From: Candidatus Parvarchaeum sp.
GTDB taxonomy: Archaea > Nanobdellota > Nanobdellia > Pacearchaeales > GW2011-AR1
DNA: 64,000 nucleotides
Assembly: GCA_020724955.1 (NCBI GenBank)
Contig: DYFY01000003.1
Location: 23,463 to 87,462 of the forward strand
Direction: 5' to 3'
Made by a program: the position numbers and the translations under genes. Below the pieces are notes generated by a model. That model made no database searches and was not told the origin of the DNA. It was given only the letters and a program-made list of their open reading frames with translations. Below, piece after piece: positions 29,574 through 44,583 of this stretch. The first letter of the stretch is position 1. Each line of letters begins with the position of its first letter.

Positions 29574-30218
29574 ATGACTTTTGAAATCCTTGCGGAATTT
29601 ACTAACGCGCTTCTGGAAATAGCCTCTGCTTTAGGTTATTTTGGAGTTTTTTTCTTGATGGTTATTGAAAGCTCATTTATACCCTTTCCAAGCGAGGTAG
29701 TGCTTATTCCAGCAGGAGCCTTAGTAGCTAGGGGAGAAATGTCCTTCAGTCTTGTTCTTTTTTTCTCTATACTTGGAAGCATAATAGGAGCTTTGCTGAA
29801 CTATTTTCTAGCAATGTTCTTGGGAAGAAACCTTATAGATAAACTTATTAAAAAATACGGAAAAGTATTTCTTATTGATAGCTCTAAGCTTAAAAAAGTA
29901 GACTCTTTTTTTGTCAGACACGGAGAGATAACCACTTTCACAGGAAGACTTATTCCTGTAGTAAGGCAGTTAATATCCCTTCCAGCCGGTTTCGCAAAAA
30001 TGGACTTGCCTAAATTCATAGCATTTACAGCCATAGGTGCAGGAATATGGAGTGCAATCTTAATTTATCTAGGCTACGCATTAGGAAGTAATTTAACTCT
30101 GATCAAAGGCAATTTATCAAGTTTGACGTTCATTGTTTTTATTTTGGTCCTTTTAATTCTAATCATTTATCTTTTGAAAGGCTCTAGGAATTTGCTTTCG
30201 CGTCAAGTATCATCTTGA
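29574..30218 (+). CDS. DedA-family (SNARE-associated) membrane protein
   Basis: IESSFIPFPSEVVLIPAG and GRLIPVVRQLISLPAG motifs. I placed the start at the internal ATG at 29574; the track ORF begins at 29511. Confidence 0.75.
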   Translation: MTFEILAEFTNALLEIASALGYFGVFFLMVIESSFIPFPSEVVLIPAGALVARGEMSFSLVLFFSILGSIIGALLNYFLAMFLGRNLIDKLIKKYGKVFLIDSSKLKKVDSFFVRHGEITTFTGRLIPVVRQLISLPAGFAKMDLPKFIAFTAIGAGIWSAILIYLGYALGSNLTLIKGNLSSLTFIVFILVLLILIIYLLKGSRNLLSRQVSS

Positions 30219-30849
30219 TCTGAAGTTTCTCGACGGCATCTTGTATTCTGCAGTCATCTCCAACAAGAATGGTGTAGCACTTATCTTCCAGTATTATCTT
30301 AGTTTGAGTTTCATTAGACTTCATTATTTGGAACACATTAACATTACTGGCTTTTTTGTTTTCACAAGTCACATAATTATGTCCATGAATTAGAGACTCA
30401 ACATAATCCATATTTCCAGATCTGACTTCAATATTGTTCGTAGATAAAAATTGGGACAAAGTTCCGATAGCCAAAAGACTGTCCTCACATTGTTTTAAGT
30501 GTGCTGTTTTGATTGTTATATAAGCTATCGGAGAATAAAGAAATGATTTGAATTTTATTGTGTTGTTTCCCTCTAGGGCAATGTTATTCTCTTTAGGATT
30601 TTTTCTTAAAAATAAATCATATTGAACTATTTGTTTATCTTTGTTGGGAAAATTATATGAGTATTTATAGAATTCAAGCTTTCCTATTCTTTCTTTAGTG
30701 AAGGTCAGTCCTTCATATTCAACTTGTCCAATTTTTTTAAAAATAGCACTAGAAACAAAGAAGACAATAACTAAAAAAACAAAAAAACCAACTATATATA
30801 ATATCTCTTTTTCGATTTTTCTGTCTTTTTTTTGCTTTTTTTCAGCCAT
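30184..30849 (-). CDS. N-terminally anchored Cys-containing protein, paralog of 30890..31432
   Basis: 221 aa with one N-terminal TM helix. Its C-terminal part KSNETQTKIILEDKCYTILVGDDCRIQDA resembles KSNYQRVYQEKNCIFIYGNSESVDA in the neighbouring gene. Confidence 0.5.
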   Translation of the reverse strand: MAEKKQKKDRKIEKEILYIVGFFVFLVIVFFVSSAIFKKIGQVEYEGLTFTKERIGKLEFYKYSYNFPNKDKQIVQYDLFLRKNPKENNIALEGNNTIKFKSFLYSPIAYITIKTAHLKQCEDSLLAIGTLSQFLSTNNIEVRSGNMDYVESLIHGHNYVTCENKKASNVNVFQIMKSNETQTKIILEDKCYTILVGDDCRIQDAVEKLQIKMILDAKANS

Positions 30850-30889
30850 AAACTATCATATCCCCTTTTGTTTTAAATCTTTCTGCCGC

Positions 30890-31432
30890 CTAATACAACC
30901 TAAGGAGCCTATAAAAAAAAGCATCAACCGATTCAGAATTTCCGTAGATAAATATGCAATTTTTTTCCTGATAAACTCTTTGATAATTAGATTTTTCAAA
31001 GATAATTAAGTTGTCCTCACAGGTTTTTTCCGGAAGATTTTTTTCACATTTTCCGTAGCAAGCGTCTTGTATTCTTGTTACTACCTGGTTGAAATTAGCT
31101 CTTATGTAAAAAGCTATATCTTCCTCTTTACTATCCAGAAACAGCTCAGACTCATAATAATCCTCAAGACTCTTGTTCGTGCTGACTTCAATGTTTTTTA
31201 CTTTTTCATAACTATTTAAAAAATTGAATTCCAACCCATTTAATTCATATCTAAAATAGTCATTTTTGTTCTCATAATTTTCTTTTTCTTGGTTTCCTGC
31301 AAAAAGATCTGAATTGATAAGAGAATAGCCGAGTGTGCTAAAAAACATAAGGAAGATTAGTAGCCCTCCAACAAGCCATTTCTTTCTGACTTCAGCTTTT
31401 TCAAGCTTTTCTTTAGAAGTTATTTTTTTCAT
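30890..31432 (-). CDS. N-terminally anchored Cys-containing protein, downstream of the S-layer gene
   Basis: 180 aa with one N-terminal TM helix and four Cys in the C-terminal half. Confidence 0.5.
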   Translation of the reverse strand: MKKITSKEKLEKAEVRKKWLVGGLLIFLMFFSTLGYSLINSDLFAGNQEKENYENKNDYFRYELNGLEFNFLNSYEKVKNIEVSTNKSLEDYYESELFLDSKEEDIAFYIRANFNQVVTRIQDACYGKCEKNLPEKTCEDNLIIFEKSNYQRVYQEKNCIFIYGNSESVDAFFYRLLRLY

Positions 31433-31502: not shown

Positions 31503-34019
31503 TTAGACTAACTGAGCACTAGTGGCTGAGGTTCCAACATATTTCTTGCCCACAGTAGTGTCCACAGGCTGAGTTCTCAGATAAGTAGCCGCATTGGTGG
31601 TATCAACAGCATTATAGCCTGCTACTAATGTAGCAACCTTAGTGCTAGAACCAGGAGCGTTAAATGTCTGAATCAAAAATTCTCCAGACCCAACTCCAGT
31701 TGCAGCTTCCCAATCAGATTCACACAAAGGCACATCAGAGCCTAATAAACTAGCAGCCATAGTGTTAATACAAGCACCTCCAACAACAATAAAGTTCACT
31801 CCTGAAACAGAAGAAACTTCACTATCTTTGATAGGAATTATGCTTGTTTTGCTAGTGGTTGCAGCTTTACTAGACGCAAGATACACCATTGCATATGTCT
31901 GAGACTCTCCAGTAGGATAATACACCTCTGCCCAGTCCTGATCAGGATCTGTATAGTGCACTACTTTAGGAGCCACGTCATCATACACATAAGCCTCGTA
32001 TGTATTGGTATTTGCGATTTCTTTCCCATGCACACCGCCTGTTCCTGAAAATGTACCTGTTGTGTTTACTTGGTCAACATACAATTCAGTAGCAGTAGCA
32101 GAAGAAAGCCTTTCCGTAATTCTAACCTCAAATGCACTTCCTGAAGCGATGTTGTCGTCCTTGTCCTCGCCATCCATAGTCAGATGCCAAGTTGTGTTGG
32201 AGTGACCACCAGGAACGGTATCCGTAACATTGTTTTTTAGAGACAAGTTAATCGCTCCAATTGCTGTCTCACTTTGCTGAGGATATAAACCATGTAATTC
32301 ATAGTTATCTTGTTCAGTTACGCCGACAGCGTGTCCAGTATAGTTAGCCACATTATAAGGCAGATAAACCCTCAGGCCTCCAACCGAATAGATTGTGTTG
32401 AAGTTGGTGTTAGTTCCGGCAGTTATGTTGACGTATTCATCAGTAGCGTTCACAAAGATAGTTTCAATTGTAAATGAAACATCTCCGATAGTGATTTGGT
32501 CATTTGCTACCTTATCTGTAGCCTCAAACTGGCCAGTTACAACATTGTAAACATCAGTTTCATTTCTGTTGTTTCCAGTATCTTCCCTAGGTCGAAGCTC
32601 CAAAAGATAGGATTCACCACTATCGCTGTCATTATATGTTGCAACGAAATACTGATGGTAATCCAAATTGTTTTTCTTCTCCCAGAAGGTCAATCTTCCA
32701 ATAGGGGAACTAGCAAATCTTTTGTCAGTTGCTTCACCGAGTCCGATTATACCATCTGTCGCGTTGGAAAATACCAAATTTATTGAGGCAGTACCGTCTT
32801 TGACAGGAACCCTCAACTCTACACTGTCATCTCCATCATTTTGAATAACTATCTTATCTTCTTCTCCCCTCACAAACTCAGTCATACTAAACTTCAATCC
32901 ACCTAATCCAGGCAGAGAAATTTCTGATTCGGGAGTGACGAATAATTCTTCATCAGCCTTCCATTCAATAGCTATCTTATCGATTTTGGCAGCTCCTCCA
33001 GAAGGTGTTCCTTTGTAGAGATATGCTCTAACGTCAGAGACAGTGTCGTCATTCAACTGTATTTCGGCCTTGTGTTCAAGTTCCAATTTTCCTCTACCTA
33101 AACTGAACTCAACAGTTCCAAGTTCTCCTGAAACTTCAAGCTTTCTTACGTCAGTTATCCCAACATAAGTTCCATCAGATAGCTTTTCAGTTTGTCCTTC
33201 AGATAAGTCATCTGTTATTTCTCCGTTAACCGAAAGCGCAGCACTATCAGAATCGATATAATCGATTTTGACATCATAGCTGACACCGTCAACAATAAGA
33301 TTTACAGTTTCACCTTCTCTTACTAAACCCTTTCCTGCAGCGTCAAGCAGAGTGATTTTACCTGTCTCTCCTTGAACAGTTCCATTTTTCCAGTCAGAAA
33401 TGTAAAATTCCTTCCCAAACATTGGCAAGAAACTACCTTCCAAGTCGTCTAAATCTCCGCCAACCACATCAGACTCTGCATCATCAAGAAAGTCAATAGT
33501 GTAGTTCAGAAGAAACTGTCCATTAGATATGTTTATTCCTATAACTGGAGTGCTTTCGCTAAGCCCAACCAAAGATTCGTAGTCAGAGTCTCTAAAATGA
33601 GCCAGTTCAGGACTTCCCAAAGTTACCTTTTGTTCAAAGTCAAAGGTATCAGAATCGTCTGCAGTATAGACTCCATCAGCAAGCAATTCCAAGTCTTCAT
33701 CGTCAACTGTAGTTCCAAAAGGTCCATTCAAGGCATCCCCAAGATTCAAGTTGTCACTGGATTTAGCAAGCAATACGCTATCCCCTTCTATTGTTCCTGT
33801 TCCAGTAGTTGTCACAAAGCTTTGCAGGCTTGTTCCAATAGATGTCGCAGCAACCAAGTCAGTTTGGGCAGCATTAGCTCCATGAACCACAGCTACATCT
33901 GCCTTACCTTCTGTCACGAAAGGAGCAGGGTAATTAGCAGCAGCAGCCAAGGCCACGGTAGAGCCTAGCATCAGCGTTGATGCAGCAGCAGAAGCAATTT
34001 TTCTGAAATTAAATTTCAT
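31503..34019 (-). CDS. S-layer (major surface) protein
   Basis: 838 aa. It has a signal peptide (MKFNFRKIASAAASTLMLGSTVALAAAA) and an N-terminal part (YPAPFVTEGKADVAVVHGANAAQTDLVAATSIG). The C-terminal part (NFIVVGGACINTMAASLL...VATLVAGYNAVDTTNAATYL) resembles methanogen-type S_layer_N/S_layer_C architecture. There are many N-x-S/T sequons. The gene also has a strong SD, a long leader and a T-tract terminator. Confidence 0.7.
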   Translation of the reverse strand: MKFNFRKIASAAASTLMLGSTVALAAAANYPAPFVTEGKADVAVVHGANAAQTDLVAATSIGTSLQSFVTTTGTGTIEGDSVLLAKSSDNLNLGDALNGPFGTTVDDEDLELLADGVYTADDSDTFDFEQKVTLGSPELAHFRDSDYESLVGLSESTPVIGINISNGQFLLNYTIDFLDDAESDVVGGDLDDLEGSFLPMFGKEFYISDWKNGTVQGETGKITLLDAAGKGLVREGETVNLIVDGVSYDVKIDYIDSDSAALSVNGEITDDLSEGQTEKLSDGTYVGITDVRKLEVSGELGTVEFSLGRGKLELEHKAEIQLNDDTVSDVRAYLYKGTPSGGAAKIDKIAIEWKADEELFVTPESEISLPGLGGLKFSMTEFVRGEEDKIVIQNDGDDSVELRVPVKDGTASINLVFSNATDGIIGLGEATDKRFASSPIGRLTFWEKKNNLDYHQYFVATYNDSDSGESYLLELRPREDTGNNRNETDVYNVVTGQFEATDKVANDQITIGDVSFTIETIFVNATDEYVNITAGTNTNFNTIYSVGGLRVYLPYNVANYTGHAVGVTEQDNYELHGLYPQQSETAIGAINLSLKNNVTDTVPGGHSNTTWHLTMDGEDKDDNIASGSAFEVRITERLSSATATELYVDQVNTTGTFSGTGGVHGKEIANTNTYEAYVYDDVAPKVVHYTDPDQDWAEVYYPTGESQTYAMVYLASSKAATTSKTSIIPIKDSEVSSVSGVNFIVVGGACINTMAASLLGSDVPLCESDWEAATGVGSGEFLIQTFNAPGSSTKVATLVAGYNAVDTTNAATYLRTQPVDTTVGKKYVGTSATSAQLV

Positions 34020-34421: not shown

Positions 34422-34781
34422 ATGGCGCAGAGAACAAAAACAAAGCAGATAACAATCGTCGATGAAAAGGGCACTTTCGGAGTTTTTCTTAAAATGCTTC
34501 AGGGTCCAAAGAGTGATTACGACTTCCAGAGCCTTTCTGCACTTAGAAGTCTGCTTTCAAACGAGAAAGCAAGGCTTATCCACACAATAAAAACAAAAAA
34601 TCCAAAATCTGTTTATTCTCTGGCCAAAATTCTTCAGAGGGATTTTAAATCAGTAAGCGAAGACATCAAGCTTTTGGAGAAATTCGGGTTTATAGACCTT
34701 ATAGCTGAAAAAACAGGAAAAAGAAACAGGCTCAAGCCAGTAGTTGTTTTGGACTCTCTTGTTATTGAGCTTAAAATTTAA
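34422..34781 (+). CDS. Predicted wHTH transcriptional regulator (COG4190-like)
   Basis: 119 aa. LSALRSLLSNEKARLIHTIKTKNPKSVYSLAKILQRDFKSVSEDIKLLEKFGFIDL...GKRNRLKPVV matches my recollection of the COG4190/HVO_A0114-type layout. Confidence 0.6.
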   Translation: MAQRTKTKQITIVDEKGTFGVFLKMLQGPKSDYDFQSLSALRSLLSNEKARLIHTIKTKNPKSVYSLAKILQRDFKSVSEDIKLLEKFGFIDLIAEKTGKRNRLKPVVVLDSLVIELKI

Positions 34782-35275
34782 CCGCAGAACTCGAGCCGTG
34801 TTATTATGCTTCCCGAATCTGATGGTATTGGATACTCAGCTCCTGAAACAGCTCCCAAGCATATCCCTGAGCTTAAAGAAATCACTTCATCGGAATTTTC
34901 ACCCAGCTCATATTTTGCCTCAAATTTATATCCTTTTACAGGCCTGTCTTCCCCAAAGGCAATGCTTTTTCCAAGCATTTCTTTTAGGCTCTGATTCAGG
35001 GCTTCACAAATTATTCTGCCGTCAACGCATTTGCTTGCCGAATTTTCATTGCACTCTCTTATAAGCTCGGATATCCTTCCGTAAGCAGGAATATAACCAA
35101 CAGCGCAGTCTGTTGTAAACTCAAGCATGCTTTCTAGCAGACTTCTGGCCTGAAAGCTGTCTCCAACAGCTTCATCAGAGCTTCTGAGGGCAAACCCTAG
35201 AAAAACCAAAGCAACAACACTCATAATTATGATTATTATTATAAAACCCACTATTTCTTCCTGTCCTTTTTTCAT
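34778..35275 (-). CDS. Class-III signal peptide (type IV pilin-like) protein P4
   Basis: I placed the start at MKKGQ|EEIVGFIIIIIIMSVVALVFLGF. This ATG overlaps the upstream stop codon as ATGA at 35272-35275. The mature part contains 6 Cys. The track ORF extends to 35317. Confidence 0.55.
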   Translation of the reverse strand: MKKGQEEIVGFIIIIIIMSVVALVFLGFALRSSDEAVGDSFQARSLLESMLEFTTDCAVGYIPAYGRISELIRECNENSASKCVDGRIICEALNQSLKEMLGKSIAFGEDRPVKGYKFEAKYELGENSDEVISLSSGICLGAVSGAEYPIPSDSGSIITRLEFCG

Positions 35276-35784
35276 TGTAATCCCTCTCCAGCTATAAGGA
35301 TTTTTCCAAGCTCGCATTTATAATATTTTTCAGAACTTTCATATCTGCACAAGGAGACAAACGAACTTTTTGCATTAAATATGTCCTCTTTTTCAACAAT
35401 AGTTATCTTCCCGCACTCGGGATAGTTTGTTTTAGTGCATTCCCCTTCTCCCTCCGGATAAATTTTTTCAATTCTCAAAAGAGACAGCTCCCAAAAATCT
35501 TTGTATCCTTGTCTTTCTTTTAGGAGAAAAGCCTTGTCAAGATCTATACAGCTTCTGCATTCGTCTATTTCCCACGAAAATTCAGGGGTTGTTGCTATCT
35601 CCCTGGCAGCCTGAAGAGCCCTCTCGTCTCTGAGGTTTTCAGCAGTATTCTTTAAGGACGAAGTCTGGAGGCTTAAGAGAAGTATTCCTGCCAGAGCAAA
35701 AAATAATACAATCGCAATCAGCACAAAAGCCATCTGCTGGACTTTCATCTGCCCTCTAGAAGAATTTACAGCTAAGTCTTTCAT
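35272..35784 (-). CDS. Class-III signal peptide (type IV pilin-like) protein P3
   Basis: 170 aa. The N-terminus is MKDLAVNSSRGQ|MKVQQMAFVLIAIVLFFALAGILLL and the globular part is Cys-rich. Confidence 0.55.
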   Translation of the reverse strand: MKDLAVNSSRGQMKVQQMAFVLIAIVLFFALAGILLLSLQTSSLKNTAENLRDERALQAAREIATTPEFSWEIDECRSCIDLDKAFLLKERQGYKDFWELSLLRIEKIYPEGEGECTKTNYPECGKITIVEKEDIFNAKSSFVSLCRYESSEKYYKCELGKILIAGEGLQ

Positions 35785-36682
35785 TTGTCCTCCTTAAATC
35801 TTCGGATTTTAAAGCTATTTGTTCAATCTCTCCTGAATTTTCAAGTTGAATTTCAGCTGCATAAATTCTTAACTCCTCTGCAAACTCTGCCCCGCAAGAA
35901 CCTCCGAATATTTCTGATTTGGCTGCGTACAGCTGAGCCAGCTCTCCGGCTCTTTTCATTAGTCTCTGAACTTGACATTCATATATCTCAGGCTCTGCAA
36001 AAATAGCCCCATAAAGCAGGGCATCCCCATAGTAGCTTACGGTTTTTCCCTTTAGGTTGTGAGTTACTCTCTCCGAGCTGGTATCCACGTTTATGTCGCA
36101 CCCGGAATCAAAGACATTTCCCGAGAAACATACTTTAATGCTTTCTCTGTTGCATTCGCTCATCTGTGAGGCAACAACCACTCTTTCCGCACGGCTTTCT
36201 TCCACGCTCTGCGGCGGATTGACAAAACAATATTCTTCTGTATAAGCATAAATCAGGCTTCCCACTTCGAATGGCATTTCAAAAGATTTTACAAATAAAT
36301 GCAATCTCTCGCCCTGCTCAACAGAATCCGAGAATAAATATTTGTCATAAGATATTTTTTCAATTTCCGGCTCTCTAAATCCCCCAGAGATGCCTGCCGA
36401 ATTAGCGCTTATTCTTTGTTCTCCGAAATTTCCTTCCGTCCTGCATGAATTAAAAATCCTGGTTTCTGTCGGAAAAGAAACATTCAGCGAGCTCTCATCT
36501 TCAATTCCTGCTCCCATTGGGTCAAGCAAAATGGCTATTTCGCTGGTGAGTTCGGCTTCAGCCCTTCTTTCTCCGCTGTTTATCACTCCAACAACAGCAT
36601 AGATTGATATAAACAAAATTGCTGCGCCCGCAATCATTGCAAAAAGCCACGCGAAACTAAACTCAATCGCTCTTTTGTTCAT
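35756..36682 (-). CDS. Class-III signal peptide (type IV pilin-like) protein P2
   Basis: 308 aa. The N-terminus is MNKRA|IEFSFAWLFAMIAGAAILFISIYAV and the protein has multiple Cys. Confidence 0.55.
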   Translation of the reverse strand: MNKRAIEFSFAWLFAMIAGAAILFISIYAVVGVINSGERRAEAELTSEIAILLDPMGAGIEDESSLNVSFPTETRIFNSCRTEGNFGEQRISANSAGISGGFREPEIEKISYDKYLFSDSVEQGERLHLFVKSFEMPFEVGSLIYAYTEEYCFVNPPQSVEESRAERVVVASQMSECNRESIKVCFSGNVFDSGCDINVDTSSERVTHNLKGKTVSYYGDALLYGAIFAEPEIYECQVQRLMKRAGELAQLYAAKSEIFGGSCGAEFAEELRIYAAEIQLENSGEIEQIALKSEDLRRTNERLSCKFF

Positions 36683-36683
36683 C

Positions 36684-37160
36684 TTATTCCAATACCCTCA
36701 CTAAGCCGTCGGTGCTTTCTTTTTCTATTTTTATTTCTATTCTCCCGCTTGCTGTTTCAAAACATTTGACTCCAGAAAAATCAAATCCAACATGCTCTAT
36801 TTTCCTGTTCCCGAGCTCAGCGCACGATTTTCTATACGGGTAAAAGAAAATATTTGAGTCAAGTTCGCCGTATGTTCTTAAATCAGAGTATTCAGGAATA
36901 TTGCTCGGCGCAGATATGTCCCCAAAACAAACTTTTTCCACGCCGGAAGGCACAGAAAGCCTAAGAGTATTTTTTGTTATTTCAGAATTCCATGCTCTGT
37001 CTATCGCCTCTTGAAGGTCGTTGTAAAAAATCCCTGCTTCTGCACATTTTCTGACATCCAGAAATTTTCCGATGGCGTAAAAGCCTGTAAAAATGATAGC
37101 CCCTATAAGAATTACGGAAAATATAAACCCAAATGAAATCTCAAACCCTCTTTTGTTCAT
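36684..37160 (-). CDS. Class-III signal peptide (type IV pilin-like) protein P1
   Basis: 158 aa. The N-terminus is MNKRG|FEISFGFIFSVILIGAIIFTGFYAI. Its stop lies 1 nt from the P2 start. Confidence 0.55.
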   Translation of the reverse strand: MNKRGFEISFGFIFSVILIGAIIFTGFYAIGKFLDVRKCAEAGIFYNDLQEAIDRAWNSEITKNTLRLSVPSGVEKVCFGDISAPSNIPEYSDLRTYGELDSNIFFYPYRKSCAELGNRKIEHVGFDFSGVKCFETASGRIEIKIEKESTDGLVRVLE

Positions 37161-37421
37161 AATCTAAAAAGCAAAATTCAATAATTAAATGTTTCTAAAT
37201 TGTTGAGTTTGGGCAGAGTGGGAAGGTTAGGTCAGATTCATAAAATAGCGGTCAAAAGAGCTGAAAATTTTCTTGCGAAGCAAAAATCCGAATAGTTATT
37301 TGGAAGCCTTAAATGGTATGACATAGCCAAATTTTATTAGAGAGATATATTATATTTTTTCTAGACTTGAAGAGATATACATAATCCAAAATTTTTTATA
37401 GGAAAGAATAGATTTATAATT

Positions 37422-39452
37422 ATGCAATTTAAATATCCAAAAACAAAAAAAATAGAAAAGATTGATAATTACCATGGAACAAAAGTTTCTGATTCCTATC
37501 AATGGCTGGAAAATTATTCTAATAAAGATGTTAAGGAATGGATAAAAAAACAAGAGAAACTGGCACATTCCTTCATAGATAAGCTTTCCCAGAAAAAGAA
37601 AATTCAAAAGAGATTAAATGAATTATGGAGATATGACGAAAGAACTATTCCTTGGGAAGTATTAAAAGGGAAAAGAATTTTTTTTCATGAGAGAAAAAAA
37701 GATGATGAAAAATGGGTTTATTTCACTCAGGAAAATCAAAGTTCAGAGAAAGTAGAATTGATTAACCCAAATAAATGGGGAGAAAAAGATTCTTTAAGTT
37801 TTGTGGTTCCTTCTGTAGATGGAAAATATGTGGCATTTGGAAAAGACAAGGGAGGCGATGAAAATCCCAAGATTAAAATAATGCACGTCGAGTCAAAAAA
37901 AATATTGAATGATTCAGTAACCGGATGGAAACAAGGCAGGGTTTCTTGGTTACACGACAATTCTGGGTTTTATTATTCCAGAAAGCCATTAAAAGGTGAT
38001 GTCAAAGAAGGGGAAGAATATTACTGGGACGAAGTTTATTTTCATAAACTTGGAACTTCTTCATCTGAAGATAAAAGAATATTTTTTTGTAAGGAAAAGA
38101 AAGAATATTATCATACCGCGAGTGTTACGGAAGACGGAAAATATGTTATTTTCTATAGAAGTACTTTTGGTAAATGCGAAGTTTATTTTAAGAAAATCAA
38201 TTCAGATAAAATTATCCCTATAGCCGAAGGATTTGATGCAGATTATCAAATAAACATAGTGAAAGATAAAATAATAATAAAAACTAATTTAGAAGCATCA
38301 AAAGGAAAGATTTTTGTTAGCGATATAGATAAACCGGAAAAAAACAATTGGCAAGAGTTAATCCCGGAATCGGAAGATAGCCTTCAGGATGTAAGCGCAA
38401 TTTCAGGCAATCTTTATATAGAATATCTTCACAAGGCTCATTCAAAGATCAAGATTTATTCTTTAGAAGGAAGATACCTTAAAGATGTGAAGCTTCCAGA
38501 TATTGGCAGTGCGGAAGTTTATGGTTATTTTTCAAAAAAGAACGTCTGGATCAGATTTTCTTCGTTTTTGTTTCCCTTTACAACTTACAAATACGATTTT
38601 GGTAAAAACGAGCTAAGTTTATTCTTTAAGCCACCAATAAATCTTAAAGTAGACAATTTTAGTACAAGGCAAGTAGAATATAAGTCCAAAGACGGAACTA
38701 AAGTAACAATGTTTCTTTTGAGCAGAAAAAATGTCAAAAAAGACGGAGAAAATCCAGCATTGTTAACTGGTTATGGAGGTTTTAACATTTCTATGACCCC
38801 ATATTTTTCTGCAACCTATGTTTCTTGGCTTGAAGCAGGAGGTATAGTCGCAATACCAAATTTAAGGGGGGGCGGAGAATATGGGAAAGAATGGCATGAA
38901 GCAGGAAAACTTGAAAAAAAGCAAAATGTTTTTGATGATTTTATCTCAGCTGCGAAATTTCTAATAAAAGAGAAATATACTAATCCTAAGAAGTTGGCAA
39001 TTTATGGAGTGAGTAATGGTGGTTTGTTAGTTGGAGCAGTTGCTATGCAAAGACCAGAACTCTTCAGAGCCGTTGTTTGCAGCGTTCCTTTATTAGACAT
39101 GTTGAGATATCATAGGTTAAGCATAGCAAATACTTGGGCTGTAGAATACGGAAGTTCAGAAAATCCGGGACAATTTGAATATATCTATAAGTATTCGCCT
39201 TATCATAATGTCAGAAAAAATGTAAAATATCCTGCAATGTTGATAACTACAAGTGAAAATGATGCAAGAGTAGACCCAATGCATGCTCTAAAGATGGTAG
39301 CTAAACTCCAAGAATTCAATCCAAATGGAGAACCAATTTTTCTTTTAGTAAGAAAAAATTCCGGACATGCCGGCGGAACGACTATCTCTAAAATAATAGA
39401 GCAAGTATCCGAAGAAATAGCTTTTCTAATGGAAAAAGTAGACACAAATTAG
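37422..39452 (+). CDS. Prolyl oligopeptidase (S9A serine peptidase)
   Basis: 676 aa. It has the N-terminus YPKTKKIEKIDNYHGTKVSDSYQWLEN, the catalytic GVSNGGLL (GxSxGG), and distal D and H regions (ENDARV, SGHAGG). Confidence 0.9.
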   Translation: MQFKYPKTKKIEKIDNYHGTKVSDSYQWLENYSNKDVKEWIKKQEKLAHSFIDKLSQKKKIQKRLNELWRYDERTIPWEVLKGKRIFFHERKKDDEKWVYFTQENQSSEKVELINPNKWGEKDSLSFVVPSVDGKYVAFGKDKGGDENPKIKIMHVESKKILNDSVTGWKQGRVSWLHDNSGFYYSRKPLKGDVKEGEEYYWDEVYFHKLGTSSSEDKRIFFCKEKKEYYHTASVTEDGKYVIFYRSTFGKCEVYFKKINSDKIIPIAEGFDADYQINIVKDKIIIKTNLEASKGKIFVSDIDKPEKNNWQELIPESEDSLQDVSAISGNLYIEYLHKAHSKIKIYSLEGRYLKDVKLPDIGSAEVYGYFSKKNVWIRFSSFLFPFTTYKYDFGKNELSLFFKPPINLKVDNFSTRQVEYKSKDGTKVTMFLLSRKNVKKDGENPALLTGYGGFNISMTPYFSATYVSWLEAGGIVAIPNLRGGGEYGKEWHEAGKLEKKQNVFDDFISAAKFLIKEKYTNPKKLAIYGVSNGGLLVGAVAMQRPELFRAVVCSVPLLDMLRYHRLSIANTWAVEYGSSENPGQFEYIYKYSPYHNVRKNVKYPAMLITTSENDARVDPMHALKMVAKLQEFNPNGEPIFLLVRKNSGHAGGTTISKIIEQVSEEIAFLMEKVDTN

Positions 39453-39731: not shown

Positions 39732-42071
39732 CTAAACAAAATTGCTTGCTCCTGCAACAAGACTGCATTGGTTTGTTCCGGGCTGATTTCCGAAATCATC
39801 AACGCATTTTATATGATATGTTTTTCCAGGCTGCCACTGGGCAAAATGCACTGTTTTTTTATCAACGTCCAGTATCTTCATCATTATTCCCGTGTTTGCC
39901 TCAAAATTGCAGTCGTTTAAAGAATAAGAACACTCAGCTTTCTCGCTTGTGATTATTTTTAAAGAGTCAACCCCTTCTTTATAAGCCCTTGTTATCAAAG
40001 GAGCTGTGTTGTCAGTTTCAACACTAAAGCTGACATTGGCAAAATCAGCATTTCCGCCAAGATCGACACACCTGAAATGATAATTGTAATTCCCGGAAGC
40101 GAGCTGTAAACTTTGTCTGTGTTTGAAGCTGTTTGTTTCAAACATTGCAATAAAGCTGTTTTCATCTCCCGTAGGACTAAAGTAACAGATGGCTTTTCCC
40201 TCTTCAGCTCCGTTGCTGGTTTCCAACTCAAGATCAACCTTCACAATTTCAGTGCTGTCAAAAATTTTCTCTCCTTCTTCTGGTTTGATGTCTATTATAT
40301 TAATCTCCTGGCTTCCCAACAGGCTGAATTCGTAGCTCTCTGTATTGACATTCCTGTCTTCCTCAGCTTTGCCGGGCTGGTCTTTGCATCTGAAATAAAA
40401 TTTGTTTTCCTGCCTGTCTTTTATTCCTGTTAAACTGGTTTTGCATTCATAAAGCTGTCTTGCATTCTGCTCATAAACCTCTGTAGAGCAGTTCATGGAA
40501 TTCTCCATGCTTTCATAAGCCTTGTCGTCTATGCTCCATTTGCATTCTGCAGGCTCATTAACAAAAGCAGTTATATCAATATTCTGGCTTCCAAATGCAA
40601 CAGGGCTTCCCCGCACTATTGATGTGTCTTCAATAATTGGAGGAGTTGTGTCTGGCGAAGGATCAACGCAGAAGCTAAACACAAACGCGTCCTCGTTTAC
40701 ATTTCCGTTGGCATCTCTGCACCTTACAAAAAAATCATATTTTCCGTCAGCGCCAATAATCAAATCCCCCTCTGCAGCTTCTGCCAAGGCATTAGGAGAA
40801 GGCAGTCTTAATGCCTGGGTGTGATTCTGCCTGAATAAGTTATTTTCTCCGAAGAAGAACCTCATGTCGTCAAATCTCATCTGGCTGTCTGTATCTATCT
40901 TGCATTGCGAAGGTTCATTTGTGGTCAGCCCAAATTCCAAAGCTGTAAACGCGGCAATGCATCCATTGGAGCTGTCTGTTCTAATTATTTTGGTTCCCAA
41001 AGCTGGTGGTCTTGTATCATGGCTTGTATATGTGTGCTTATCTGTCAAAGCGTCCTGCCAAGGAGTTATCGTCGGACTTGTGACATCACTTCTGCTTACC
41101 CAGACGCATTTTTCCTCGTCAGTGCCTGGATTCACGAGCTCGCATGCCTGCCCCAAACTCTTGCATCTGTATTCAGAGCAGGGCAATCCCCCGGAATTGC
41201 ACTGCTCGCAGTTGCTTCCCCCAAGAGGAGCCTCCCAAGGAAGGCATTGAAACTCAGCTATTTTCTGACTTTCCTCTTTGTACAACAAAACAAAAGTAAC
41301 AGCTGCCACTCCAATTCCTATTGCAGGAGCATAATTCAAAAAGAAACTACCTTTATCTAACAAGCCAAAACCACTTGGACCTAAAGAAGCTAAGCCCTTA
41401 TAAGACATTATTCCCGCAAAAGCTGCAATGCTTAACGCGTTAGTTGTTTCTTGCTCAACACCAGCAATTCCTCCTATCAATTGAATTGCTCCGACAACAG
41501 CCAAACTCCAAGCCAATCCTTCAAATAAATGAGCATACCCCCCTGTAATCTCAAGCCCTAAAAAGTCAATTTTCTTTCTGGAGGTTAAGGAAACCCCCTT
41601 ATCTGCCAAACCGCTTTTAAAAACATCAACCTGTTCATTAGGAACCGTATCTATTATTGTATCTCCCTCACCAAGCAGTCGCAAGTCTCCGTTAGAAGCT
41701 ACAGAAGTATCTTTAATATCTAAGAGATTTATTTTCTTTCCGCTAGGCGAAGTAAAAAAACTATCTTTGGAAATTGCAGAAGTTCCTGTAAGCCTTGCTC
41801 TTGATACACTGTCTACTTCTATTAAAGCAGCAGTTCCTTTACTTCCTGGTTTTGGCTGAATTCCTTCAAAATTCCATCCCATATATTGTTGTTGAGCACT
41901 TGTTCCTGGAGCGGGAGGACCAAGAATTTGAGAATTGGGAACTGGCTGCTCTTGCCCGCTAACAGCATTTGCCTCTCCGAGAATGAATCCAAATGCGGCA
42001 ATTGAAACCAGCATCAAAAATATCTCACCTAAACTAATGTTAACAATAAAGCTACTTCCTCTTTTCTGCAT
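39732..42071 (-). CDS. Large surface protein, the C-half homolog of the 1386-aa giant
   Basis: 779 aa. The order is a pilin-like N-terminus, a Gly/Ala-rich hydrophobic block, a Cys knot and four Ig-like modules. The N-terminus is MQKRG|SSFIVNISLGEIFLMLVSIAAFGFIL. The hydrophobic block is ...GLAWSLAVVGAIQLIGGIAGV...APAIGIGVAAVTFVLLY. It is followed by FQCLPWEAPLGGSNCEQCNSGGLPCSEYRCKSLGQACE. The four modules are about 110 aa each with the signature NEPxxCK...F[FY][FV]RC.D..GN. Confidence 0.6.
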   Translation of the reverse strand: MQKRGSSFIVNISLGEIFLMLVSIAAFGFILGEANAVSGQEQPVPNSQILGPPAPGTSAQQQYMGWNFEGIQPKPGSKGTAALIEVDSVSRARLTGTSAISKDSFFTSPSGKKINLLDIKDTSVASNGDLRLLGEGDTIIDTVPNEQVDVFKSGLADKGVSLTSRKKIDFLGLEITGGYAHLFEGLAWSLAVVGAIQLIGGIAGVEQETTNALSIAAFAGIMSYKGLASLGPSGFGLLDKGSFFLNYAPAIGIGVAAVTFVLLYKEESQKIAEFQCLPWEAPLGGSNCEQCNSGGLPCSEYRCKSLGQACELVNPGTDEEKCVWVSRSDVTSPTITPWQDALTDKHTYTSHDTRPPALGTKIIRTDSSNGCIAAFTALEFGLTTNEPSQCKIDTDSQMRFDDMRFFFGENNLFRQNHTQALRLPSPNALAEAAEGDLIIGADGKYDFFVRCRDANGNVNEDAFVFSFCVDPSPDTTPPIIEDTSIVRGSPVAFGSQNIDITAFVNEPAECKWSIDDKAYESMENSMNCSTEVYEQNARQLYECKTSLTGIKDRQENKFYFRCKDQPGKAEEDRNVNTESYEFSLLGSQEINIIDIKPEEGEKIFDSTEIVKVDLELETSNGAEEGKAICYFSPTGDENSFIAMFETNSFKHRQSLQLASGNYNYHFRCVDLGGNADFANVSFSVETDNTAPLITRAYKEGVDSLKIITSEKAECSYSLNDCNFEANTGIMMKILDVDKKTVHFAQWQPGKTYHIKCVDDFGNQPGTNQCSLVAGASNFV

Positions 42072-42115
42072 GCATTTAATAGAAAAGCGTTATTTATAAA
42101 GAATTCTCTTAAGAA

Positions 42116-42805
42116 TTACCTCTTTCTTTTCACGCCGCTGAAATCCCAATAGCCAATTTCAAATTTTATTCTTCCCCAAGCCTCATCGTCCACAAAAAGT
42201 CGCATCTCATATTTTCCGTTAGCAGAGTCTGTAGTCATCCCTCCAATTCTGTGAAGCTTTTTGTCATCAATTTCAAAGTTAAATTCACCTTTATCAGCAA
42301 ATTCCCCATTATACCAGCGTTCCAATAAGATGCCTACAGATTTTTTCCCTTCTGGCAACTCAGTAAAAAAATGTATATTATCGCCATGTCCAAAAGGTCC
42401 GCCAATTTTTTTATACTCATCAGGATAACTTATCCTACCATCTTCATTCAAATCTTCTGTTCCTGCGCAGGCAAACATCAATCTATGAGGAACTGGCGCA
42501 GAATCCACATTTCTAGTATTTCCAGATTCATAATTGTAAACATTAACATTTTGCTTGTTTTCGCTCTTTCCTGCTAAGGAATTAGCATAGCTTGTTGTTG
42601 CTCTTCCAGCAGCAATTGCTTCTGGCTTTCCTTGAGCTATTCCATATTGTTCCGCTCCTATCCCAGCCATAGTTGTAACAAATTGCGTGGCATCATCATT
42701 TTTGAACCTTATGCTTTCACATCCCGTTCCTCCAGCTAAAACTCCAGCAAGCCCAAGTGCCCCAATAGAATTTTTTATTCTTCTGTTCATTTTATCTATC
42801 TTCAT
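42116..42805 (-). CDS. Putative lipoprotein with an EF-hand-like calcium-binding loop
   Basis: 229 aa. It has a signal with a lipobox-like LAGGTGC and a loop DLNEDGRISYPD that fits the D-x-N-x-D-G-x-I-x3-[DE] pattern. Confidence 0.5.
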   Translation of the reverse strand: MKIDKMNRRIKNSIGALGLAGVLAGGTGCESIRFKNDDATQFVTTMAGIGAEQYGIAQGKPEAIAAGRATTSYANSLAGKSENKQNVNVYNYESGNTRNVDSAPVPHRLMFACAGTEDLNEDGRISYPDEYKKIGGPFGHGDNIHFFTELPEGKKSVGILLERWYNGEFADKGEFNFEIDDKKLHRIGGMTTDSANGKYEMRLFVDDEAWGRIKFEIGYWDFSGVKRKR

Positions 42806-42911
42806 CTTTAACTAATCTTCCAACATATTCGTCGATTCCTGCGCCAGTTACAGCTAAAAGAATTCTTTTCAGTCCATTCCTCACATCACCTCTGCCGCGA
42901 TGTTCAGACAT
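42792..42911 (-). CDS. Possible 39-aa small ORF with a strong SD
   Basis: The minus strand has GAGGAGATAGAATG, followed by MSEHRGRGDVRNGLKRILLAVTGAGIDEYVGRLVKDEDR. It overlaps the start of 42116..42805 by 14 nt. Confidence 0.2.
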   Translation of the reverse strand: MSEHRGRGDVRNGLKRILLAVTGAGIDEYVGRLVKDEDR

Positions 42912-43050
42912 TCTATCTCCTCAAGCAAAACAGAATATTTAAATCTTTCGATTTGTTGTAACTATAAAGAAATTACTACTTTAGCTTCTCACACTCACTT
43001 TCCAACCCTTGTGTTTCCTCATAACATGTGTTTGTTGGAAGCACGCCTCT

Positions 43051-44583
43051 TCAACTTCTCACAACTTCATATCCTTCTTTGTAACCTTTCTGATTCACCC
43101 AATTCAGCTTCGGCCCGCAGTCCCCTAAAGCCGAGCAGACATCAGCTCTTTGCTTTTCCCATTCTTCTGTCAAACATTCGCAGTTTTCAACACACTCTTC
43201 TCCTCCAAAAAGCCCTTTTTCGAATTTTACAACGCACTGCACATTTGCCTGGCTGCATAAGGCCAATGCTTCCTCGCTGTTCCAAAACTCCAGCCCAGGA
43301 GGGTTTTTAGGAAGGCAGCTCCCATCAGCGCTATCATTAAGCCCTATAGTAACCCCTTCTTTCCAAAAACAATCCCTTCTGTCAGTATTTTCGCAGTCAT
43401 CCTGATTTGCCTGAGCCAAACAATCCTGCCATCTATTAACTCTGCATGCTGCCTGAGAAAACTCTCTCCCTGAGAATTCTATTGAATCTTCAAGACATTC
43501 CTCATTTCTGAAATCAGCGCAGGACTCTGTGATTATTTCTCCATTAACGCAAATCTGCCTGAAAAATCTGCTTCCTACTTTGTTGACTCCGTCTTTTGTT
43601 GTTTTGCCATCCCCGACGCACCAGCTCTCTCCGTGCAGCCTGTCTTTACCTTCAGAGTCTTTGCAGTTCAAATCAGCGCATATATAATCTCCGTAAATTG
43701 CATTCCCCCCTGATTTGTCTTCGGCCCTGCAGAAACTTCCAAGAAGATAATTGCAGTTCCCGCAGCTTCTGCTGTTTCCGTTTCCGCTGTTCGGACTGCA
43801 GCTCTCAGCTTTGTTTTTTACATTGGTCCAATAATCCTGGTCTTCTCTTTTGGACGAATCGTAAATGTTGGCGGGATTTCCGCAGGTGTCCACGTAATAA
43901 ACCTCATCTTTTCCAGGAAGGCATGTTGTTTTGTCTGAAGGTCCGCAGTTTGTGCCAAGCTCATCCGCCGAGCATAATTTATCTTCGAAGAAGATTCCTG
44001 TAATAGTTCCGTTATTGATTCCTGAATCACATTCAGCCCTGGTTGTAAATTTGCATGTCCTCTCAAACTCAAAATCATAAACGCATGCTCCCTTGTCCTG
44101 ATTAGAAACGCTCTGAACACACGCAAGCTCATTGCTTATTGATTTGTCATAATTTGTCTCAAGCCCTAATGAAGCAGAAAGTTTTTTGCATCTCACTAAA
44201 GTCACAAAAGCAGCCTGGTCGCCGAGCTTGCAGCATCCAAGCTCGCACTGCGGAGGATTTTCTTCGTTCCATATTCCTCCATTTTGGTTGCAGGTTATCT
44301 GTGGAGTGTTGTCAAGGCATGTTCCCTCTGTACTGCTGTAACAAACACCTGGCTTGCAGAAGCTTGTAGACTCGCACGAGGTAGGAACGTTTCTTGCCCC
44401 TTCTGCGCACTCGCTTGGCAGAACATCCTGGCAAAAGGCCCCGGAATTAGTTCTCTCACAGCACACTGTGTTAGTAGCCTGAGCCTGCACAGAAAACACA
44501 TGAATAAAAAACAAAAACACAGCTCCTATAATTAGGGCTGTCGCTGGTTTCCTGCCAATCAATTTTATTGTTTTTGGTTTCAT
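43051..44583 (-). CDS. Secreted cysteine-rich protein, the N-half homolog of the 1386-aa giant
   Basis: 510 aa with a Sec-type signal (ALIIGAVFLFFIHVFSVQAQA). It has roughly 60 Cys by eye. It is collinear with residues about 70-745 of the giant, for example GKDEVYYVDTCGNPANIYD with GKDGVYWIDSCGNRENIYE, and SCGNCNYLLGSFC with SCGNCNRFAGSVC. Its ATG overlaps the upstream stop as ATGA. Confidence 0.6.
   Translation of the reverse strand: MKPKTIKLIGRKPATALIIGAVFLFFIHVFSVQAQATNTVCCERTNSGAFCQDVLPSECAEGARNVPTSCESTSFCKPGVCYSSTEGTCLDNTPQITCNQNGGIWNEENPPQCELGCCKLGDQAAFVTLVRCKKLSASLGLETNYDKSISNELACVQSVSNQDKGACVYDFEFERTCKFTTRAECDSGINNGTITGIFFEDKLCSADELGTNCGPSDKTTCLPGKDEVYYVDTCGNPANIYDSSKREDQDYWTNVKNKAESCSPNSGNGNSRSCGNCNYLLGSFCRAEDKSGGNAIYGDYICADLNCKDSEGKDRLHGESWCVGDGKTTKDGVNKVGSRFFRQICVNGEIITESCADFRNEECLEDSIEFSGREFSQAACRVNRWQDCLAQANQDDCENTDRRDCFWKEGVTIGLNDSADGSCLPKNPPGLEFWNSEEALALCSQANVQCVVKFEKGLFGGEECVENCECLTEEWEKQRADVCSALGDCGPKLNWVNQKGYKEGYEVVRS

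What the first reader, a model, noticed from the sequence alone, without database searches (positions are those of the whole stretch)
34778..37160. Four-gene operon of small Cys-containing pilin-like proteins (P1-P4), analogous to a minor-pilin set
Four consecutive, tightly packed or overlapping ORFs of 158, 308, 170 and 165 aa each begin with a short basic n-region. This is followed by [KR][GA] or [KR]GQ and then a 20-25 residue hydrophobic helix. Each has a globular part with several Cys (for example ECRSCIDLD and ECTKTNYPECG in P3, and 6 Cys in P4). The four are mutually dissimilar. That pattern fits a set of distinct minor or tip subunits better than duplicated major pilins. The operon ends convergently, with a 4-nt overlap, against a COG4190-type regulator gene.
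Basis: partly seen in the sequence, partly recalled or inferred. Interest (0 to 1): 0.6.

Follow-up and report, generated by a model that had tools for sequence, protein, structure and literature searches.

The report
Conserved four-gene pilin-like operon
A tiny symbiont-type (DPANN) archaeon carries four tightly coupled genes for pilin-like surface proteins; the set is single-copy, kept in the same order across its whole class, sits next to the S-layer gene, matches no described protein family, and so is a good candidate for an unstudied cell-envelope or attachment module.

Summary
Four minus-strand ORFs (158, 308, 170 and 165 aa) lie 1 nt apart or overlap, and Shine-Dalgarno boxes precede P3 and P4. 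Each starts with a short basic region, then [KR][GA], then a hydrophobic helix.

In 80 related genomes the -1 residue is always G, A or S, and +1 is Q in all P3 and P4 orthologues. Upstream residues vary; +1 to +7 are nearly invariant. That is the pattern of a class III (prepilin) cleavage site.

The 735-kb genome has one A24 prepilin peptidase with both catalytic Asp motifs. It also has a T2SSE ATPase with two T2SSF platform genes, on other contigs.

AlphaFold models of P2 and P3 (pLDDT 90 and 88) show a 43-56-residue N-terminal helix followed by beta-sheet. Neither Foldseek, PDB sequence profiles, Pfam nor NCBIfam matches any known pilin. Cysteine numbers are always even, and one Cys pair is gained and lost together.

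The operon is single-copy and near-universal in the order (377 of 401 genomes). It recurs in other orders of the class, always beside the S-layer gene and often beside giant Cys-rich proteins.

Verdict: four new pilin-like families. A minor-pilin-type or pseudopilus role is plausible but unproven. The scan had already noted the larger locus on this same window.

The parts
36684..37160 (-). P1, 158 aa: pilin-like protein. Signal MNKRG|FEISFGFIFSVILI; 4 Cys.
   Evidence: ORF. Orthologues in 78 of 80 loci. [KR][GAS] precedes the helix in 63 of 71, and +1 is mostly Q. Alignment A4 has invariant C78 and C133. The N-terminal 41 residues are homologous to P2.
35756..36682 (-). P2, 308 aa: the largest pilin-like subunit. 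Signal MNKRA|IEFSFAWLF; 8 invariant Cys; extra C-terminal helical domain.
   Evidence: Found in 377 of 401 genomes of the order, almost always as a single match per genome. AF2 pLDDT 90: helix 10-52, strands 65-216, helices 219-302. No PDB match.
35272..35784 (-). P3, 170 aa: pilin-like protein. Signal ..SSRG|QMKVQQMAFVLIAIVLFF; 6 Cys.
   Evidence: -1 is G or A in 76 of 76 and +1 is Q in 76 of 76. Q+1, K+3, Q+5, M+7 and F+9 are 96-100% conserved. AF2 pLDDT 88: helix 9-64 plus four strands. An AGGAGG box lies upstream of the ATG.
34778..35275 (-). P4, 165 aa: pilin-like protein. Signal MKKG|QEEIVGF; 6 Cys.
   Evidence: -1 is G, A or S in 71 of 71 and +1 is Q in 71 of 71. Q+1, E+3, G+6 and F+7 are 100% and E+2 is 98% conserved in the 69 sequences profiled. 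The Cys139/Cys164 pair is present together in 39 sequences, absent together in 21, and never single. The profile finds 1845 clusters at 50% identity in public data.
37161..37421 (-). AT-rich upstream region of the operon, the presumed promoter (an A/T-rich TTTAATTA box lies ~25 nt before the P1 ATG).
   Evidence: Sequence read. No transcript data were available.
34422..34781 (+). Convergent HVO_A0114-family winged-helix regulator; its stop overlaps the P4 stop by 4 nt.
   Evidence: Pfam PF25212, E 2.4e-17. Convergent in 56 of 59 loci of the order. Missing at this position in other orders.
31503..34019 (-). S-layer protein (838 aa, Sec-type signal): the most constant neighbour of P1-P4.
   Evidence: PF05124 S_layer_C, E 1.9e-9. 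Downstream on the same strand in 44 of 46 loci. Directly after the P4-like gene in other orders.
30184..31432 (-). Two small N-anchored Cys proteins (180 and 221 aa) that follow the S-layer gene.
   Evidence: No Pfam hit. A D180 homologue is present in 43 of 46 loci and was detected by tblastn in two of the six other-order loci (L134, L135).
37422..39452 (+). 676-aa ORF (earlier scan note e1-2887535 reads it as an S9A prolyl oligopeptidase; I ran no family search on it). A lineage-specific insertion that splits P1-P4 from the upstream array; not part of the system.
   Evidence: None of the 80 related loci has a homologue here (POP hits 0). In relatives the 702-937-aa protein abuts P1.
39732..50367 (-). 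Upstream array: two further pilin-like proteins (44580-45386, MEKKG|QIAVFVIV; 49546-50367, LQKRG|QVAIFIIV) and giant Cys-rich proteins (1394, 510 and 779 aa, plus a 229-aa protein with a lipoprotein-like N-terminus (read by eye)).
   Evidence: Upstream of P1 in 26 of 41 loci with room. In locus L133 a giant gene lies between the P2-like and P3-like genes.

Best explanation
P1-P4 are four different type IV pilin-like proteins, that is, class III signal-peptide proteins, made in fixed proportion from one translationally coupled operon.

Proposed mechanism:
1. Each precursor inserts into the membrane with its short basic N-terminus in the cytoplasm.
2. The genome's single A24 aspartyl prepilin peptidase cuts after the conserved G/A. 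This leaves a mature N-terminus of Q (P3, P4, most P1 orthologues) or F/I (P2, P1 here), followed by about 22 hydrophobic residues.
3. The mature subunits associate through these N-terminal helices into a small hetero-oligomer of the minor-pilin or pseudopilus type. The disulfide-bonded globular domains face outward. P2, with its extra helical domain, is the odd large subunit.
4. The complex is loaded by one of the T2SSE/T2SSF machines encoded elsewhere. It acts at the cell envelope together with the neighbouring S-layer protein and, in many lineages, the giant Cys-rich membrane proteins. It may prime or cap a filament, or form a short stalk through or under the S-layer.

What is shown by computation: the operon geometry, the cleavage-site conservation, the presence of peptidase and ATPase/platform genes, the helix-plus-sheet models, the Cys covariation, and the phyletic and syntenic conservation.

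What is inferred: the cleavage itself, hetero-oligomer formation, filament or stalk assembly, and the partners.

My sub-probabilities: about 0.8 that they are class III-signal pilin-like proteins processed by the A24 peptidase, and about 0.45 that they act as a minor-pilin or pseudopilus-type assembly. The confidence given (0.45) is for the whole statement including the assembly step.
For: Cleavage site, from 80 loci of Pacearchaeota-, Woesearchaeota- and Nanoarchaeota-labelled MAGs:
- P3 has -1 = G44/A32 of 76, +1 = Q in 76 of 76, and -2 = K/R in 66 of 76.
- P4 has -1 = G43/A25/S3 of 71 and +1 = Q in 71 of 71.
- P1 and P2 have [KR][GAS] in 63 of 71 and [KR][GA] in 52 of 58.
- Conservation jumps from 60% or less at positions -8 to -2 (G alone is ~60% at -1, where G/A/S together make 100%) to 96-100% at +1, +3, +5, +7 (P3) and +1, +2, +3, +6, +7 (P4). 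Signal length varies from 4 to 39 residues.

Processing and assembly genes:
- One PF01478 peptidase in the genome, with D23 and the GGD85 motif.
- The peptidase family is found in 197 of 201 genomes of the phylum sample, and in 91 of 92 genomes that have P3.
- A T2SSE ATPase with two T2SSF genes on contig C12, and a second T2SSE next to eight pilin-like ORFs and the peptidase on C10.

Structure:
- P3 model: pLDDT 87.9, helix 9-64, then a short helix and four strands.
- P2 model: pLDDT 90, helix 10-52, then beta-sheet.
- Cys counts are always even, and the P4 third pair is both-present in 39 and both-absent in 21 sequences, never single.

Operon coupling.

Conservation:
- 377 of 401 genomes of the order, and 84 of 86 high-quality ones.
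- The same four-gene set, all with [KR][GA]Q, occurs in other orders.
- P1-P2-P3-P4 order holds in 62 of 65 loci.

Literature: in DPANN, pilins are scattered away from the ATPase/platform, and many genomes carry Epd-like system 1 with two platform genes (PMC13705601).
Against: - Foldseek against the PDB gives no hit better than E 0.2 for P2 or P3.
- PDB sequence profiles of all four families find nothing significant.
- No Pfam or NCBIfam pilin, archaellin or Class_IIIsignal model is matched. The only hints are sub-threshold: ComGE at E 0.009 and 16 bits against a cut-off of 49.
- No ATPase, platform or peptidase lies within 10 kb in this genome or in six distant loci.
- The most constant neighbours are the S-layer gene and small membrane-anchored proteins. 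This fits an anchoring role as well as a filament role.
- P1 and P4 were not modelled.
- The packing of helix on sheet could not be inspected, because only secondary structure is returned.
Confidence: 0.45

Rival explanations
1. P1-P4 are processed class III-signal proteins that never polymerise. After cleavage they stay anchored in the membrane by the hydrophobic N-terminal helix. There they form a fixed sub-S-layer complex that anchors, spaces or helps assemble the S-layer and the giant surface proteins. The analogy is the Sulfolobus bindosome (small Bas pilin-like proteins) or the archaellum stator ArlF/ArlG, which binds the S-layer.
For: The S-layer gene follows the operon in 44 of 46 loci of the order. 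It directly follows the P4-like gene on the same strand in other orders. The S-layer protein has a Sec signal and no C-terminal anchor, so it needs a partner to hold it. There is no motor in the locus. The operon is a single-copy core gene set, as expected for envelope architecture and less so for an accessory pilus.
Against: Nothing distinguishes it from the filament model at sequence level. Gene order can persist in small genomes without a functional link. A separate 200-320-nt spacer, and in this order a convergent regulator, separates the S-layer gene from P4. No Pfam hit to archaellin/ArlF/ArlG-type families.
Confidence: 0.27
2. The N-termini are ordinary uncleaved signal anchors. P1-P4 would then be type II single-pass membrane proteins of unknown envelope function, and the [KR][GA] motif merely reflects the positive-inside rule.
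For: No fold or family match to pilins. No linked assembly genes. A permissive N-terminal pattern search ([KR][GA] followed within 8 residues by an 18-residue hydrophobic stretch) hits 63 ORFs in this genome, many surely false.
Against: A signal anchor does not need an invariant small residue at -1 followed by an invariant Q at +1 (147 of 147 for P3 plus P4). Nor does it need near-invariant polar residues at +2 to +6 next to a freely varying n-region. The A24 peptidase is retained as a core gene in these minimal genomes.
Confidence: 0.08
3. P1-P4 are the specific priming and tip complex for the giant Cys-rich proteins of the upstream array. In this fimU-pilVWXY1-like arrangement, the four minor pilins present a large adhesin for host contact. 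(This is a special case of the best explanation, so its probability overlaps with it.)
For: Giant homologues lie upstream in 26 of 41 loci. A giant gene is interleaved between the P2-like and P3-like genes in L133. The array carries two more pilin-like genes. The earlier scan follow-up e1-2887514 reached the same analogy.
Against: No giant homologue is detected within 10 kb in 15 of 41 loci, although divergence may hide some. The giants carry their own Gly-rich hydrophobic stretch that looks multi-membrane-spanning, as read by eye from the sequence. That is hard to reconcile with display at a pilus tip.
Confidence: 0.2

Closest known systems
Bacterial minor-pilin sets of type IV filaments: GspH-I-J-K of type II secretion, and FimU-PilV-W-X (with PilY1) of type IVa pili
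   Same: Four different pilin-like genes in one tightly coupled operon. Each has a prepilin-type signal and hydrophobic N-terminal helix. One subunit is much larger and has an added domain (P2 against GspK or PilW). The set is often encoded next to a very large non-pilin surface protein.
   Different: No sequence or detectable fold similarity. Archaeal-type signal without the G|F-x-x-x-E motif. No motor, platform or major pilin in the locus. Linked to an S-layer gene. A single-copy core set across a whole archaeal class.
Methanococcus maripaludis Epd pilus minor pilins (EpdA-C) and other EppA substrates (archaeal T4F 'system 1')
   Same: Archaeal class III signals with K/R at -2, G at -1 and Q at +1 (my knowledge of Szabo et al. 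2007 and Ng et al. 2011). The genome has the system-1 hallmark of one ATPase plus two platform genes (PMC13705601). PMC13705601 reports system-1-type pilins scattered in about 1990 DPANN genomes.
   Different: The DUF361/Class_IIIsignal Q-x-S-x-E-x-x-x-L motif and its Pfam model are not matched. The genes are not in the ATPase locus. arCOG membership could not be tested with these tools.
Sulfolobales bindosome assembly system (BasABC small pilin-like proteins with BasEF)
   Same: Small class III-signal proteins thought to form a non-filamentous, envelope-embedded scaffold that positions other surface proteins near the S-layer.
   Different: The Bas pilin genes lie beside their ATPase and platform. 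There is no homology, and no substrate-binding proteins or ABC transporter are linked here.
Archaellum stator proteins ArlF/ArlG (FlaF/FlaG)
   Same: About 150-170-aa proteins with an N-terminal pilin-like hydrophobic helix and a beta-rich domain. ArlF binds the S-layer protein (my knowledge of Banerjee et al. 2015), which parallels the S-layer synteny seen here.
   Different: No match to archaellin-type families. I ran no search for archaellum genes in this genome. There are four distinct Cys-rich proteins rather than two.

Membership tests
Type IV pilin-like proteins (class III signal-peptide substrates of A24 prepilin peptidases) | N-terminal class III signal: a short basic n-region, a small residue (G/A/S) at -1 usually with K/R at -2, followed at once by ~20 hydrophobic residues | tested here: met
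   All four proteins have it. In orthologues, -1 is G/A/S in every P3 (76) and P4 (71). K/R at -2 occurs in 66 of 76 and 65 of 71. P1 has the motif in 63 of 71 and P2 in 52 of 58. The n-region varies while +1 to +7 are near-invariant.
Type IV pilin-like proteins (class III signal-peptide substrates of A24 prepilin peptidases) | A cognate A24 aspartyl prepilin peptidase encoded in the genome | tested here: met
   One PF01478 gene at contig C10:62018-62851, with D23 and the AGGD85 motif. The family is present in 197 of 201 genomes of the phylum sample.
Type IV pilin-like proteins (class III signal-peptide substrates of A24 prepilin peptidases) | Actual cleavage of the signal by the peptidase | not testable with these tools
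   Needs proteomics or an in vitro or heterologous cleavage assay.
Type IV pilin-like proteins (class III signal-peptide substrates of A24 prepilin peptidases) | Extended N-terminal alpha-helix (~50 residues) followed by a beta-sheet globular domain | tested here: met
   AF2 P3: helix 9-64, then four strands, pLDDT 87.9. AF2 P2: helix 10-52, then strands 65-216 plus C-terminal helices, pLDDT 90. Only secondary structure could be read. P1 and P4 were not modelled.
Type IV pilin-like proteins (class III signal-peptide substrates of A24 prepilin peptidases) | Detectable structural similarity to a solved pilin, pseudopilin or archaellin (supportive, not defining, because globular domains vary widely) | tested here: inconclusive
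   Foldseek against the PDB gives a best E of 0.23 for P2 and 0.51 for P3, and no pilin is among the hits.
Type IV pilin-like proteins (class III signal-peptide substrates of A24 prepilin peptidases) | Assembly ATPase (T2SSE) and platform (T2SSF) available, and incorporation into a filament | tested here: inconclusive
   The ATPase and two platform genes are present on C12, and a second ATPase on C10. They are unlinked to P1-P4. Incorporation into a filament is not testable.
Curated archaeal pilin/archaellin sequence families (Pfam Pilin_N PF07790, Class_IIIsignal/DUF361 PF04021, Arch_flagellin PF01917; NCBIfam pilin models) | Score above the family's curated cut-off | tested here: not met
   No hit at E <= 1 for any of the four in Pfam. 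None among the families listed for the 62 P3 orthologues (25 of 29 shown). NCBIfam gives only sub-threshold ComGE (16 bits against 49) and TadE-like hits for P3.
EppA-type (Epd, system 1) archaeal pilins | Gln at +1 and the Q-x-S-x-E-x-x-x-L mature N-terminus | tested here: inconclusive
   Q at +1 is invariant in P3 and P4, frequent in P1, and present in P2-like proteins of other orders. The rest of the motif is not present: P3 reads QLKIQQMAF and P4 reads QEEIVGF.
Bacterial minor-pilin tip complexes (GspHIJK, FimU-PilVWX) | Homology to those families | tested here: not met
   No sequence or fold match. The resemblance is organisational only.

The most novel reading that the evidence does not exclude
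P1-P4, the two further pilin-like proteins, the giant Cys-rich membrane proteins, the S-layer protein and its two small companions together encode one class-wide DPANN envelope organelle. In it, a short pilin-based stalk, processed by the single prepilin peptidase, anchors or pierces the S-layer and carries the giant proteins as the host-contact device of these obligate symbionts.
Probability: 0.2. Interest if true: 0.8.

Novelty: new variant of a known kind. Interest (0 to 1): 0.55.

Why it matters
Pacearchaeota- and Woesearchaeota-type DPANN archaea are abundant, uncultured and thought to live attached to hosts. Nothing is known about how their envelope is built or how they attach.

A 2026 census of archaeal type IV filaments (PMC13705601) found their pilin genes scattered and could not say whether they make surface structures. 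Makarova et al. 2016 (PMC4858521) could not identify the cognate pilins for one clade of nanoarchaeal ATPases.

This operon supplies four concrete, near-universal, single-copy candidates with clean cleavage motifs and confident models. It also ties them genomically to the S-layer gene. That gives direct targets for proteomics, cryo-tomography and heterologous cleavage assays. It also adds four new families, of which the P4 family alone has about 1,800 clusters at 50% identity, to the pilin-like protein universe.

Tried and rejected
- Pfam and NCBIfam scans of P1-P4, and of 62 P3 orthologues, found no pilin family.
- PDB sequence-profile searches with all four alignments found nothing significant.
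- hhalign between the four families showed that only the N-terminal segments are related. The idea that the four arose by recent duplication is therefore rejected.
- A search for paralogues in the genome, including the eight pilin-like ORFs beside the peptidase on C10 and the RGISPV-type pilins on C12, found none.
- A search for ATPase, platform or peptidase genes within 10 kb of the operon in six loci from other orders found none.
- Chance or a non-coding artefact is rejected by the conservation.
It is absent from all 80 related loci.
Full report
THE OBJECT

The window comes from a 735-kb, about 87% complete genome. Its relatives in public data are labelled Pacearchaeota, Woesearchaeota or Nanoarchaeota, that is, DPANN archaea.

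On the minus strand lie four ORFs: P1 36684-37160 (158 aa), P2 35756-36682 (308 aa), P3 35272-35784 (170 aa) and P4 34778-35275 (165 aa). The junctions are tight:
- P1 stop and P2 start are separated by one base.
- The P3 ATG lies 29 nt inside P2, behind an AGGAGG box.
- P3 stop and P4 start overlap as ATGA, behind GGAGAGGG.
- The P4 stop overlaps by 4 nt the stop of a convergent HVO_A0114-family winged-helix gene (PF25212, E 2.4e-17).

This geometry argues for one transcript and coupled translation, and hence fixed stoichiometry. That step is inferred, not measured. The one qualification is that P1 and P2 share their first ~41 residues (hhalign 96.8%).

THE GENES ARE REAL AND ANCIENT

- P2 has 193 full-length relatives at E <= 0.001, all unnamed and without Pfam domains.
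- It is found in 377 of 401 genomes of the order and in 84 of 86 high-quality ones, almost always as a single match per genome.
- In 80 loci fetched with 10-kb flanks, the order P1-P2-P3-P4 on one strand holds in 62 of 65 loci with room.
- A P3 profile finds single matches in 92 of 201 genomes sampled across the phylum, all in the same class.
- In those other orders the same set recurs: a ~160-aa, a ~300-340-aa, a ~170-aa and a ~145-aa gene, each with [KR][GA]Q.
- The P4 profile alone recovers 1845 clusters at 50% identity from public data.
- None of the four has a paralogue in its own genome.

THE N-TERMINI BEHAVE LIKE PREPILIN SIGNALS, NOT PLAIN ANCHORS

- In orthologues, P3 has G (44) or A (32) at -1 and Q at +1 in 76 of 76 sequences.
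- P4 has G, A or S at -1 and Q at +1 in 71 of 71.
- K/R occupies -2 in about 87-92% of sequences.
- P1 and P2 keep [KR][GA] in 63 of 71 and 52 of 58.
- The segment before the site varies in length (4-39 residues) and sequence. Positions +1, +3, +5, +7 and +9 of P3, and +1, +2, +3, +6 and +7 of P4, are 96-100% conserved.

A positive-inside signal anchor gives no reason for an invariant small residue followed by an invariant Gln and conserved polar residues at the start of the helix. A peptidase recognition site and a helix-packing mature N-terminus do.

PROCESSING AND ASSEMBLY GENES EXIST BUT ARE UNLINKED

- The genome has one A24 peptidase with D23 and an AGGD85 motif.
- The peptidase family is present in 197 of 201 genomes of the phylum sample, and in 91 of the 92 genomes with P3.
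- Contig C12 carries a T2SSE ATPase with two T2SSF platform genes, surrounded by RGISPV-type pilins.
- Contig C10 carries a divergent 756-aa T2SSE, eight consecutive pilin-like ORFs and the peptidase.
- One ATPase with two platform genes is the layout of archaeal 'system 1' (Epd-like). PMC13705601 reports this system in many DPANN genomes, with pilins scattered away from the motor.

STRUCTURE

- AlphaFold2 with a 62-sequence alignment gives P3 a pLDDT of 87.9. The model has a 56-residue N-terminal helix (9-64), a short helix, and four strands. This is the classical pilin 'lollipop' order of elements.
- P2 (37 sequences, pLDDT 90, pTM 0.84) has a helix at 10-52, a long beta region and a C-terminal four-helix part.
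- Foldseek against the PDB finds nothing better than E 0.2 for either model, and no pilin.
- Sequence profiles of all four families find no solved relative.
- Pfam and NCBIfam pilin models are not matched.

The proteins are therefore pilin-like by signal and architecture, but belong to no described family. I could not inspect the coordinates, and P1 and P4 were not modelled.

THE GLOBULAR PARTS ARE PROBABLY EXTRACYTOPLASMIC

- Cysteine counts are even in nearly every orthologue: P2 has 8 (one of 37 has 9), P3 has 6 or 8, P4 has 6 or 4 (two of 60 differ), and P1 has 4, 2 or 6.
- The third Cys pair of P4 is present together in 39 sequences, absent together in 21, and never single.
- A conserved N-x-S/T sequon occurs in 38 of 60 P4 sequences.

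CONTEXT

Within the order, the operon is followed by:
- the convergent regulator, in 56 of 59 loci;
- the S-layer gene (PF05124), in 44 of 46 loci;
- a small N-anchored Cys protein (D180 homologue, 43 of 46), normally followed by a second one (D221).

Giant Cys-rich proteins and two further pilin-like genes lie upstream in 26 of 41 loci. In this genome a 676-aa ORF (noted earlier in the scan as a prolyl oligopeptidase) found in none of the 80 relatives has been inserted between them.

In other orders the regulator is missing, and the S-layer gene follows the P4-like gene directly on the same strand. In one genome a giant gene sits between the P2-like and P3-like genes. So P1-P4 belong to an old envelope supercluster whose most constant member besides themselves is the S-layer gene.

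INTERPRETATION

I put about 0.8 on these being class III-signal, peptidase-processed pilin-like proteins. I put about 0.45 on a minor-pilin or pseudopilus-type hetero-oligomer that primes, caps or replaces a filament. I put about 0.27 on a processed but non-polymerising sub-S-layer anchor, comparable to the bindosome or to ArlF/ArlG. I put about 0.08 on plain uncleaved anchors.

The closest known systems are the bacterial GspHIJK and FimU-PilVWX(Y1) sets, which are similar only in organisation, and the Epd minor pilins of Methanococcus, which share the archaeal signal with Q at +1. Membership in their sequence families was tested and not met.

LITERATURE AND EARLIER NOTES

Neither Makarova et al. 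2016 (PMC4858521) nor the 2026 census (PMC13705601) describes this operon. Both note that S-layer-like and Cys-rich components accompany archaeal type IV filament loci, and that DPANN pilins are poorly resolved.

Earlier notes of this scan on the same window had already flagged the larger locus and proposed a host-contact structure. I reached the pilin-like reading independently and add three things: the cleavage-site statistics, the models, and the S-layer linkage.

LIMITS

There is no multimer modelling and no arCOG comparison.

Noticed in passing
window 37422-39452 (+): A 676-aa ORF (earlier scan note e1-2887535 reads it as an S9A prolyl oligopeptidase; I ran no family search on it) sits between the giant-protein array and P1. 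None of 80 related loci has a homologue there, so it is a lineage-specific insertion that split a formerly contiguous locus.
   Followed up: partly
own genome contig C10:50549-62851 (locus L118:3550-15852): A second pilus-like locus. It holds a divergent 756-aa T2SSE ATPase, a 719-aa protein with no Pfam hit on the opposite strand, eight consecutive small pilin-like ORFs (139-359 aa, all M-x-K-[KR]-[GA]) and the genome's only A24 prepilin peptidase.
   Followed up: partly
own genome contig C12:10733-22906 (locus L119): An Epd/system-1-like locus: a T2SSE ATPase and two T2SSF platform genes, flanked by pilins with the canonical archaeal RG|ISPV N-terminus. One is a 677-aa pilin with DUF4215 repeats.
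   Followed up: partly
window 30184-31432 (-) and homologues in L038-L135: Two small N-anchored Cys proteins (180 and 221 aa) follow the S-layer gene in almost every relative (43 of 46 for the first), and D180-like matches were also found in two loci of other orders (L134, L135). They have no Pfam hit and are candidate S-layer accessory or anchor proteins.
   Followed up: partly
L133:4386-10887 (genome G509, another order): The four-gene set is interrupted. A 1019-aa giant Cys-rich gene and two small genes lie between the P2-like and P3-like genes. This shows that the giants and the pilin-like genes are shuffled within one cluster.
   Followed up: no
L010 1088-1498 (= L039), between the P1 and P2 orthologues: A 136-aa gene is inserted inside the operon in one relative. 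Its N-terminus reads MKNKILFVCRYNRFRS, which looks like a low-molecular-weight phosphatase or ArsC.
   Followed up: no
L006/L007 3643-4277: A nucleotidyltransferase/HepT-like toxin-antitoxin pair (PF01909 and PF01934) is inserted within the giant-protein array of a relative.
   Followed up: no
window 39732-42071 (-): The 779-aa giant protein also begins MQKRG|SSFIVNISLGEIFLMLVSIAAFGF. This is a possible class III-type N-terminus on a very large protein, and I did not examine it further.
   Followed up: no
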